This document shows positions 13,560-16,629 of a stretch of 64,000 nucleotides of DNA, piece by piece. A program made the position numbers and the translations under genes. Source of the DNA: Catajapyx aquilonaris (lineage: Eukaryota); contig JYFJ02000715.1 in the NCBI GenBank assembly GCA_000934665.2, positions 1-64,000 on the forward strand, written 5' to 3'. Within the stretch, counting starts at the first letter, position 1. Each line of letters starts with the position of its first letter. The notes under the pieces were generated by a model that worked only from the letters and a program-made list of their open reading frames with translations, ran no database searches and was not told where the DNA came from.

Positions 13560-13830
13560 ACACATTGCAAAGAATAATAATTCGCAAGAAAATAAAAAAA
13601 ATCGGGACGAAATCAAAAACAAAGATGGCCGCCATAATTAAAGTGCGTCGAACATTCCGAATTTCTTTGGCTATCTCTCTAAAATTTTAATTTAATCAAA
13701 TACTAAAATACGTCACCATCTGATCACATTTTGATATTAAAATTAATAAGTTTAATTTGCACTGGATTGGCTACACTGCGACGTCGAACATCCGTCGAAC
13801 GTCATTATCAGGTATTGCGTCTTTTTATGT
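13560..13830. promoter_or_regulatory. Putative bidirectional promoter between FBXO8 and the FBA F-box gene/CEP44
   Basis: Lies between divergent 5' UTR splice donors (13514 on -, 13907 on +). Contains a YY1-like AAGATGGCCGCCAT at 13622-13635. Confidence 0.5.
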
Positions 13831-13990
13831 CACGTTCTAATGACATGTCGGCCGGCTAAAAGTAGTTGAAATAATTACACTTGGCCTAAAGTTGACAAGA
13901 AGAACGGTAAGATTATTATCAGTACGGTACTTACAAAACTTGGATAAGGCACAACAAGTACTGTACATTAAATTGGTGGGTGTAGAGGCA

Positions 13991-14812
13991 ATGCTGGCTG
14001 CGGTGAGGTCCTGGATGCGGCCTGAAGCAGCTGCGACCACAACTGGGCTGTCCATTAACAAGTGGTTGCCGCCTGAGCTGATCCTGCACATACTGAGCTA
14101 CGTGGATGCCCAGACGTTGGTGTTTAGCTGCCGACTTGTTTGTCTGCAGTGGCGTGGAACCGTGGAGGATACGCAACTATGGCGGCTTCTACTGGCACGA
14201 TCTGGAGTGCAGCTGCCGAAGCTGCCGAGGACCGCACCGCACTGGCCGGTGTACTACTGGATTGCACAGAAGGCGCCGTTCAACCGTAACCTGATATGGA
14301 ATGCATGCGGTGCGGATGGATTGGATGGCTGGACCATCCTGCAAGACGGGGGCCACCAGTGGAAGGTGGAGGATCCGCCAAGCGGGGCTGATGCGGTTCC
14401 TGAAGAAGTTGGGGAGACCATGTGCTTTGCGACTTCATATGGCCCATGCGTGATGGAGCAAACCGTTAACTTGTGGAGGGAAGGATTGGTTCCGTTCTTG
14501 CTCGATTCGCTCCAGCCGGTCATTGCGGTCTCGGAGTTCAATGCAGCGCGGTTTGATTGCGGGTGTGTGTACAACATGGGGGCGCAATTGCTTGATTACC
14601 GTGGAAGAGTCATTAAGGAGATCGGGGTCGACAGCAGGACTGAGCAGTGGCTTGGAAAGGAGTGGAAGAAGGAAGAGAGGAAGTTTGAGGACTATGGGAA
14701 AGGCGTCAAGGCAATTCGTTTTGTACATGGCGGTCAGGACACGCAGTTTTGGGCAGGGCATTACGGGAGCAAGATGACTGGAGCTTCTGTCGTTGTCTTG
14801 CCACCACAGTGA
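13991..14812 (+). CDS. FBXO6: F-box + FBA (sugar-binding) protein of the FBXO2/FBXO6/FBXO44 family, 273 aa, intronless CDS
   Basis: F-box LPPELILHILSYVDAQTLVFSCRLVCLQWR. FBA hallmarks RNLIWNAC, DGGHQWKVE, CFATSY, ARFDCGCVY and FVHGGQDTQFWAGHYGSKMTGASV. Exact orthology within the family cannot be resolved by eye. Confidence 0.9.
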   Translation: MLAAVRSWMRPEAAATTTGLSINKWLPPELILHILSYVDAQTLVFSCRLVCLQWRGTVEDTQLWRLLLARSGVQLPKLPRTAPHWPVYYWIAQKAPFNRNLIWNACGADGLDGWTILQDGGHQWKVEDPPSGADAVPEEVGETMCFATSYGPCVMEQTVNLWREGLVPFLLDSLQPVIAVSEFNAARFDCGCVYNMGAQLLDYRGRVIKEIGVDSRTEQWLGKEWKKEERKFEDYGKGVKAIRFVHGGQDTQFWAGHYGSKMTGASVVVLPPQ

Positions 14813-15707
14813 ATGAAAGAAATTGTATTGGAATCACTTGAGGTCAAACATGATCGAGAAAAAATGCTTATTAAAAGGGGTTGTAAGATCTCGTAGGTGC
14901 TTAATGTTGTTCTGATAAAATCAATGCATTTGTTGAACATTACTAGCCAATTTTCTGAGTGATGTGTGATGGCAAGTGAATAACTGATGGCGACATTTGA
15001 TTTCTACAAGTAAATATCTGAATCTCATGTTAAAGCTATGTAATTTACTGGAACTAAATTGTGTGTGAAAATTCATGTTTGTGTCATTTGGTCAAATTTT
15101 CACTCAATATGTCTCATCACTACAATTATTGCCAATGCGAAAGTGTAAGTTATGTTGTTTTTTTTTTTCATTTGAGTTGAAAATGTATTTAGCTTCTTGT
15201 TCTGCATTTTATGCAGCATGTGTCATTCATACTAATGCGCTTTATTTCCCATTTATCATGTGTTTCGCAATGATGTGGCTTTATCAGCAATTGTTCGACT
15301 CGACATTCTGCTGATAGGCAGAAAATAATGCCATCTACGATGTAAAACTAGCTTACAACTTTGAAAATGCCTTGGGAAGTTGCGACTTCTCAGCTCATTT
15401 TGGTATATTGCATTGTTGTAAACATAACCTGTAATAAGAGGTAGTATTAATAGGCCTTTGCAGCTGTAATAATTAATTTTTGAATAAATTATTATTATCA
15501 GTTAATGCTGCATTCACGACTTTATATGAGCCACTTTTTTTTTTTGCACTCCTAAGCAGTCACTGTATTGTTCATGGTTGACGTAGTTACAAGGTTTGTT
15601 TGTTGTTTTTTTGACTTGACAGTGGTGTCTATGTCCATGTTTGGGCACAGTTGGGGCATTCATGTAATGTTGATCATCAAACATTACTTTCCAGCCATAT
15701 GCAGCCA

Positions 15708-16629
15708 ATGGATACCTTGCGCAATGATCTGAAGAAACTCTACAGAGAACTCCTCAAGCTTGGCCATGAAGCTTCAGACGACACCATAGCAGGGTAAAGT
15801 CAGATTATTAGTAGTATGTTAGCCTTGCTGACGTATCAATAAAATTTGTGGCTTCTTCATGTAGGTTGTAAGCTCTATTGTCTATTCAATATTATAAAGG
15901 TGCGTTTACATGTAAGTGATTTGACGAGCGAAGTGTTCGCCGAGCAGTAACAGCGTTGAGTAACCCAAGTAACCAGTATTGTTTGAGGCGAAAATCGATT
16001 GTTACTTCCACCTGTTTCTCCATTAACCTATATGCATCTCTTGCTTTGCAGTCTTGCAAGTGGAAATCCTGTCCACTATCTGATCGTGTTCTCCTACATA
16101 TGCAACCAATGCGACCCAGTAATCCGTCAAGAAATCCGCGATAGCACATGCGAGACCATCCTGTACGACATGTGCCAAGCTGGTCAACCTGGAGTCGAGG
16201 CCCTCTACAAGGTTATGTACGGGTTCTGTCACATGACACCCATCATAGTCCCGCACCAGTTTATGATGAAGAGGTTTGCCCACCACAAAGTTCGCATGTG
16301 TATTAAACTCATGGAAGTGCTGAGGAAGAAGGAGAAGAAGTTCAAACCGCAGATTAAATCATCAGTGTCGACACCTGGAGACTCTGCGCCAAATCTGGAA
16401 ATCACCGGCACAAAAGCTATCAGCTGTGTCCTGGAGGATCCAGTGAAGCTGCTTCAGGTACGCCACACCATTTTTGTCTGTACGGCAGGTGTTTGTAAAA
16501 CCCTTGTCTTTTTTTTGCCTGCAGCGCTCGCTGTCTCAGATGTCTTTCGAAATGATGTCGGTGAACAACCACCTTGAGCGGATCGAGCATCAACTGACCA
16601 TGAACGGCGACCCTGTGATTGTAGACTAG
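15708..16629 (+). CDS. CEP44: Centrosomal protein CEP44-like, short form (~198 aa)
   Basis: Exons 15708-15793, 16052-16457 and 16525-16629 join in frame. GLASGNPVHYLIVFSY and VEALYKVMYGFCHMTPIIVPHQFMMKRFAHHKVRMCIKLMEVLRKK align by eye with the CEP44 N-terminal domain as I recall it (human GLIKGDPAASLPIISY / IDAVYKLLRDQFNYKPILTKKQFIQCGFAEWKIQIVCDILNCVMKK). Short C-terminal coiled coil. Confidence 0.8.
15899..16007. mobile_element. PIF/Harbinger (Tourist-like) MITE, family C, partial, in CEP44 intron
   Basis: Begins GGTGCGTTTACATG and shares internal sequence with the copy at 32604. Confidence 0.6.

What the first reader, a model, noticed from the sequence alone, without database searches (positions are those of the whole stretch)
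13800..15793. Intronless FBA-type F-box gene inside the FBXO8-CEP44 pair, possibly sharing CEP44's first exon or forming a dicistronic transcript
Seen: a donor g|gtaaga at 13907 can splice to tgtag| at 13985, five bases before the FBXO6-like ATG. The CEP44 ATG exon is also preceded by an acceptor (actttccag| at 15694), so it needs an upstream non-coding exon. Candidate donors are 13907, which skips the whole F-box gene, or |gtaagt at 15145 in the F-box 3' UTR. Inference: an intronless, retrocopy-like F-box gene inserted into CEP44 intron 1 and captured its promoter, so one promoter would yield two unrelated proteins through alternative 3' splice-site/polyadenylation choice or a dicistronic mRNA.
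Basis: partly seen in the sequence, partly recalled or inferred. Interest (0 to 1): 0.75.

Follow-up and report, generated by a model that had tools for sequence, protein, structure and literature searches.

The report
F-box gene sharing CEP44's leader exon
In this arthropod an intron-free F-box gene lies inside the first intron of the centriole gene CEP44 and both RNAs carry the same short non-coding leader, so one promoter likely yields two unrelated proteins, a known kind of arrangement.

Summary
All four splice motifs are at the stated coordinates. One public run with spliced contigs (X1) shows the joint 13906->15695, which skips the whole F-box gene and continues through three CEP44 coding exons, and a second, unspliced contig 13877-15394 over the whole F-box frame. 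Both begin exactly 30 bases before the donor, as an assembly fork would. Homologues carry three conserved coding introns that this gene lacks, no second copy was found in the assembly, and a 12-base direct repeat flanks the unit: likely an orphan retrogene (about 0.65). Start site, 3' end and phasing are inferred from one contig set; only 30 bases lie left of the joint. The class is known: 130 Drosophila genes share promoter and non-coding 5' exons, as do ChAT/VAChT. The scan noted similar layouts at other loci of this genome before (unchecked). New member of a known kind.

The parts
13877..13906 (+). Shared non-coding leader exon, the 30 bases seen in both RNA contigs; its true 5' end lies upstream and is unknown
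   Evidence: Both contigs begin at 13877; two stops in the CEP44 frame of the spliced leader; single place in the assembly
13907..15694 (+). CEP44 intron 1, 1788 nt, GT..AG
   Evidence: Joint in run X1
13991..14812 (+). Intronless FBXO6/44-like coding sequence, 273 aa, F-box plus FBA domain
   Evidence: covered without gap by contig 13877-15394
14813..15394 (+). F-box 3' UTR as far as the unspliced contig reaches
   Evidence: contigs cannot show an RNA end
15483..15488 (+). Candidate polyadenylation signal AATAAA with a T-run at about 15536-15546 (inferred)
   Evidence: Only AATAAA between the stop and the acceptor (an ATTAAA lies at 14870); use not tested
13912..13923 (+). Left copy of a perfect 12-nt direct repeat, candidate target-site duplication
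15491..15502 (+). Right copy of the 12-nt direct repeat, 2 nt after AATAAA
15695..15793 (+). CEP44 first coding exon (ATG 15699, second in-frame ATG 15708)
   Evidence: Joints; aligns with the N-terminus of a clam CEP44
16052..16457 (+). CEP44 coding exon 2
   Evidence: Joints; PF15007
16525..16650 (+). CEP44 coding exon 3 (stop 16627-16629) as far as the contig reaches
   Evidence: protein 201 aa; exon lengths add up to the 661-nt contig
12254..13200 (-). FBXO8 coding exons facing away from the F-box/CEP44 unit
   Evidence: F-box and Sec7, FBXO8 homologues, one joint 12411-12501; its leader exon is predicted only
13600..13876 (.). Predicted bidirectional promoter region
   Evidence: CpG observed/expected 1.79 for 13600-13910 against 0.49 in 14813-15694; three copies of an 11-nt motif; function inferred

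Best explanation
An intronless FBXO6-like gene lies in CEP44's first intron and both RNAs contain the same non-coding leader sequence; one promoter likely makes a pre-mRNA that is either spliced from 13907 to 15694 (CEP44) or read through the donor and, likely, polyadenylated inside the intron (F-box protein). Shown: the skipping joint, the unspliced F-box contig, the shared 30 bases, the loss of three ancestral coding introns. Inferred: one common start site upstream of 13877; cleavage after AATAAA 15483; competition between splicing and intronic polyadenylation setting the ratio; origin as a reverse-transcribed copy that landed just behind the donor, gained a promoter at once and replaced its parent (about 0.65 on its own). 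The protein is predicted to be an SCF adaptor for N-glycosylated proteins like FBXO6/FBXO2 (from homology; function of that family is my own knowledge).
For: Run X1: 10 of 11 joints are GT..AG (one read on the minus strand), so it behaves as spliced RNA. Contig of 661 nt = 13877-13906 + three CEP44 exons. Contig of 1518 nt lies on 13877-15394 with no gap or difference. Both start 30 bases (k-1; Logan uses k=31) before the first base at which they differ, the mark of a graph fork. The leader stretch is single-copy. Introns: 14 of 17 exon pairs tested in 10 genomic homologue loci gave a GT..AG intron, all 14 at one of three positions (after residue 108 phase 1: 3; 182 phase 2: 4; 227 phase 0: 7); Anabrus isoforms X1/X3 diverge at the 108 position. 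One FBA gene in the assembly by three searches. Neighbours differ in three compact loci (GALNT-like domains in L021, DUF2039 in L014, PhyH in L025). 12-nt flanking repeat: reached by 23 of 3000 shuffles and 58 of 3000 real AT-rich pairs.
Against: One run, one study, contigs only. The joint has 29-30 bases on its left side, under the tool's own 31-base bar for a bridging record. A de Bruijn fork does not phase molecules: the two RNAs could start at different nearby sites. No start, end or strand can be read from contigs. For retro-origin: long coding exons occur in neighbours too (BCAS3 has about 1 kb without an intron), L012 matches across the 227 position in one piece, 7 of 29 loci (L005-L011) match in one piece and cannot be told from cDNA, 3 of 17 exon pairs gave no intron, no poly(A) remnant (longest A run 6), the repeat was found post hoc in AT-rich DNA, the assembly is fragmented (20583 contigs), and no close relative's locus could be read.
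Confidence: 0.8

Rival explanations
1. Same layout, but the gene got there without retroposition: moved as DNA, or long resident, and lost its three introns in place.
For: Intron loss is ordinary in arthropods (own knowledge); 1-kb exon in neighbouring BCAS3; L012 appears to lack one of the three introns; no poly(A) remnant; the tree leaves the gene in an unresolved fork, no sign of a young duplicate (quick tree only).
Against: All three conserved introns are gone while FBXO8, CEP44 and BCAS3 keep introns; the gene appears to have no promoter of its own; candidate target-site duplication.
Confidence: 0.3
2. The two genes have separate, closely spaced start sites and merely overlap in their 5' UTRs.
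For: Contigs cannot show starts or phase molecules (notes); FlyBase lists overlaps without shared promoter (rows CG12991/CG12992).
Against: Both RNAs include 13877-13906, so both start upstream of 13877, in a region of under 700 bases that also holds the start of FBXO8.
Confidence: 0.12
3. One reading: the F-box gene is spliced to the leader through its own acceptor at 13985 (VAChT type), or a dicistronic mRNA joins 15144 to 15695.
For: The motifs exist; donor 15145 scores 4.3 bits, inside the range 0.6-11.1 of used donors; rare forms are dropped from contigs.
Against: The F-box contig is unbroken across 13907-13986 and 15145; acceptor 13985 has fewer pyrimidines than any of 10 used acceptors; two other GT sites in the 3' UTR score as high or higher (7.0, 4.8), so 15145 is not special.
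Confidence: 0.08
4. The unspliced contig is only CEP44 pre-mRNA or excised intron, and the F-box frame is not expressed as its own mRNA.
For: It lies wholly within leader plus intron 1; library type is not on record.
Against: The frame is intact, 46-47% identical to insect homologues, GC at third positions 0.65 against 0.34 GC in the flank, and is the only FBA gene found; the contig includes exon sequence 5' of the donor, so it is not an excised intron.
Confidence: 0.05

Closest known systems
Drosophila gene pairs that share a promoter and non-coding 5' exons (FlyBase, 130 genes, e.g. Ip259/RpS27A; PMC4528330, passages and one supplementary table searched)
   Same: Two unrelated coding sequences, one shared non-coding 5' stretch, separate mature mRNAs
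   Different: Other genes; the terms FBX and Cep44 gave 0 hits in the 12 supplementary files searched; shared start here is inferred
Cholinergic locus, VAChT in the first intron of ChAT (Ixodes; PMC7524744, passages)
   Same: Single-exon ORF inside intron 1 of a same-strand host; shared first exon
   Different: VAChT is spliced onto the shared exon; here the nested RNA seen is unspliced. ChAT and VAChT serve one pathway; no link between CEP44 and an FBA F-box protein is known to me
Retrocopies that integrate in a host intron and use its promoter (13 human, 14 mouse; Taf9/Ak6) and orphan retrogenes (10 families) (PMC4772013, passages)
   Same: Intron loss, host promoter, parent apparently absent
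   Different: Those are spliced chimeras with a traced parent locus; here the parent locus and date are untraced
FBA-type F-box proteins FBXO6, FBXO44, FBXO2 (PDB 8zuh, 3wso, 2e31)
   Same: F-box plus FBA over the whole length, E 4e-46 to 4e-43; the QFWAG stretch is identical to FBXO6
   Different: Sugar binding and SCF assembly untested; gene structure differs

Membership tests
FBA-type F-box protein | N-terminal F-box and C-terminal FBA domain | tested here: met
FBA-type F-box protein | Binds N-glycans and SKP1 | not testable with these tools
   Homology only
Genes sharing promoter and non-coding 5' exon | Both RNAs contain the same 5' exon sequence | tested here: met
   13877-13906 in both contigs
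Genes sharing promoter and non-coding 5' exon | Shared part is non-coding | tested here: met
   No ATG in 13877-13990; stops in the CEP44 frame; a non-AUG start in the F-box frame is not excluded
Genes sharing promoter and non-coding 5' exon | Same transcription start | not testable with these tools
   Only contigs were on offer
ChAT/VAChT-type locus | Single-exon ORF inside intron 1 of a same-strand host | tested here: met
ChAT/VAChT-type locus | Nested ORF spliced to the shared exon by its own acceptor | tested here: not met
   The contig seen is unspliced; rare spliced forms not excluded
Dicistronic transcript | One mature mRNA holding both ORFs | tested here: inconclusive
   No such joint in X1; contigs show presence, not absence
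Orphan retrogene | Lacks introns conserved in orthologues | tested here: met
   Three positions
Orphan retrogene | Parent gene absent | tested here: inconclusive
   One FBA match; assembly fragmented
Orphan retrogene | Position differs from the ancestral locus | tested here: inconclusive
   0 of 29 homologue loci hit CEP44 or FBXO8, but most are short; three show other neighbours; no close relative read
Orphan retrogene | Target-site duplication and poly(A) remnant | tested here: inconclusive
   12-nt repeat, p about 0.01-0.03, post hoc; no poly(A) run

The most novel reading that the evidence does not exclude
A retrocopy of the only glycan-reading F-box gene jumped 17 bases behind the leader donor of the ancient FBXO8-CEP44 divergent pair, still shows its 12-base target-site duplication, replaced its parent, and turned the locus into a three-gene unit in which a splice-versus-intronic-polyadenylation switch trades a centriole protein against a glycoprotein-degradation adaptor; it would be one case of a lineage-wide habit of parking housekeeping retrogenes in leader introns.
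Probability: 0.2. Interest if true: 0.55.

Novelty: new member of a known kind. Interest (0 to 1): 0.3.

Why it matters
It is an RNA-supported example of how a relocated gene can gain expression at once from a host leader, and a compact natural reporter for competition between a 5' splice site and an intronic poly(A) site, each outcome giving a different conserved protein. In practice any knockdown or promoter edit of CEP44's leader in this animal would hit the F-box gene too, and automatic annotation would likely miss CEP44's first exon. The principle is established, so the gain is one more case.

Tried and rejected
Run search: no RNA holder listed on record; the single holder X1 is of unrecorded kind. 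Parts without cover in X1 (13152-13876, 15395-15693, 15794-15890) prove nothing, since a filter drops records and Logan drops short contigs; they fit a short shared 5' piece and a 3' end before the acceptor, but I do not count them. Contig depths (17.9, 26.4) are no measure of level. Synteny through accession numbers failed: the CEP44 word search found no hit, the profile-free search found one clam protein, and the FBXO8 search was limited to 290 aa or more and returned no named insect. Metagenome loci could not be searched as whole records; instead 149 of 257 listed open frames from 8 of the 9 loci listed were scanned with Pfam (L015 left out as near copy of L016, frames over FBA exons and many of L026/L033 left out): no CEP44 or Sec7; L016 (7 kb downstream, insect-like) gave no convincing neighbour. 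The careful tree did not finish; the quick tree of 52 rows (window plus 51 of 98 hits) leaves the protein in an unresolved fork. The 3' flank 14813-15700 has no second match in the assembly. Literature: searches (FBXO8+CEP44, 12 papers, listing only but for two; 0; 0) showed no description of this locus; the library lacks most subscription papers. Whether FBXO8-CEP44 is in the ancient-microsynteny list of PMC3514665 could not be read (supplements unavailable; listing only seen); 0 hits in supplements of PMC3815023. PMC4528329 and PMC11694760 passages added only that nested genes are common and favour first introns.

Full report
Observation. The frame 13991-14812 encodes 273 aa with F-box and FBA domains, closest to cricket and cockroach proteins at 46-47% identity and matching solved FBXO6, FBXO44 and FBXO2 over its whole length. 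To its left, on the minus strand, lies FBXO8; to its right CEP44, single-copy in the assembly. A 7tm chemoreceptor and BCAS3 are nearby; the animal is an arthropod by these hits. As bare motifs the splice sites are common, so RNA was needed.

RNA. One run, X1, holds the stretch. Its kind is not on record, but 10 of its 11 joints over 10500-22500 are canonical introns. A 661-nt contig joins 13906 to 15695 and goes on through CEP44 exons 15695-15793, 16052-16457 and 16525-16650; the lengths add to 661. A 1518-nt contig lies on 13877-15394 without gap. Both begin at 13877, 30 bases before the first base where they differ; with k=31 (Logan preprint 10.1101/2024.07.30.605881, passages) this is what a fork in the assembly graph gives. 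So the F-box gene is inside CEP44 intron 1, and both RNAs contain 13877-13906, a stretch found once in the assembly and non-coding for CEP44. Limits: one run; 29-30 bases on the short side, below the tool's 31-base bar; no start, end, strand or level.

Origin. A scan of metagenome contigs gave 29 loci with FBA homologues. In 10 loci with split matches, 14 of 17 exon pairs gave a GT..AG intron, all at three positions: after residue 108 (phase 1), 182 (phase 2) and 227 (phase 0) of the window protein. Three of these loci (L020, L029, L030) are 61-74% identical to the cockroach protein over the exons matched, and Anabrus isoforms part at the 108 position. The window gene has none of the three. 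Seven loci match in one piece and may be cDNA. No second FBA gene was found in the assembly. None of the 29 loci hits CEP44 or FBXO8; three show other neighbours, but most are too short to tell. A perfect 12-mer occurs at 13912 and 15491 and nowhere else in the window; removing the stretch between leaves a 209-nt intron, within the 56-961 nt range of the other nine introns seen. A match this long arose in 23 of 3000 shuffles and 58 of 3000 real AT-rich pairs (29 and 102 of 3000 for the wider region first searched). It was found post hoc, there is no poly(A) run, only 2 bases separate it from AATAAA, and such repeats decay fast, so I give it about 0.25 of being a true target-site duplication. 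FBXO8 and CEP44 are neighbours in jawed vertebrates (PMC13756586, passages) and both respond to SETBP1 promoter binding (PMC5989213, passages); that they are head-to-head in human is my recall, from no call. If the pair is ancestral, the F-box gene is the newcomer.

Mechanism. Most likely (0.8) a promoter in the CpG-rich stretch around 13600-13876 makes one pre-mRNA. Splicing 13907-15694 removes the F-box gene and gives CEP44; failure to use the donor with cleavage after AATAAA 15483 gives an unspliced F-box mRNA whose first ATG downstream of 13877 is 13991. The two forms are shown; common start, 3' end and competition are inferred. Three short upstream frames start at 13827-13845 and would matter only if the start lies further 5'. 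Retroposition with loss of the parent is the likelier origin (about 0.65) against DNA movement or intron loss in place (0.3).

Comparison. It works like the FlyBase class of genes sharing promoter and non-coding 5' exons (130 genes; PMC4528330) and meets the two features that could be tested. It resembles ChAT/VAChT (PMC7524744) but fails one feature, splicing of the nested gene to the shared exon. Host-promoter capture and orphan retrogenes are described in mammals (PMC4772013). Eight paper searches showed no account of this locus. Earlier notes of this scan report similar nested intronless genes at six other places of this genome; I did not check them and they do not enter the score.

Verdict.

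Noticed in passing
window 13844-13990: The F-box frame is open for 49 codons upstream of the ATG, through the shared exon and the retained donor (358 of 20000 shuffles); chance or a non-AUG extension.
   Followed up: partly
window 13646, 13782, 13793: Three copies of an 11-nt CGTCGAAC-containing motif in the predicted bidirectional promoter, with a CCAAT-like site at 13766 and a YY1-like site at 13622 (motif labels recalled).
   Followed up: no
window 12254-16650: FBXO8 and CEP44 are divergent neighbours here and neighbours in jawed vertebrates, a possible ancient microsynteny; intermediate lineages not read.
   Followed up: partly
window 15699-16629: CEP44 here is 201 aa, against 586 aa for the clam homologue; only the N-terminal 125 aa align.
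   Followed up: partly
window 13234-13515 (minus): FBXO8 appears to have its own leader intron (acceptor-like site near 13234, donor-like near 13515); no RNA joint seen.
   Followed up: partly
window 16790-17619: (TAA)20, then a high-copy repeat (contig depth 3823 in 16916-17316), then about 5 copies of a 103-nt tandem unit, between CEP44 and the BCAS3 leader.
   Followed up: no
window 17943-18905: BCAS3 also has an upstream exon ending at 17943, joined across 961 nt.
   Followed up: no
window 14534-14545: The window protein has Phe-Asn where homologues in the alignment have Trp plus an aromatic residue, at the site of the lost phase-2 intron.
   Followed up: no
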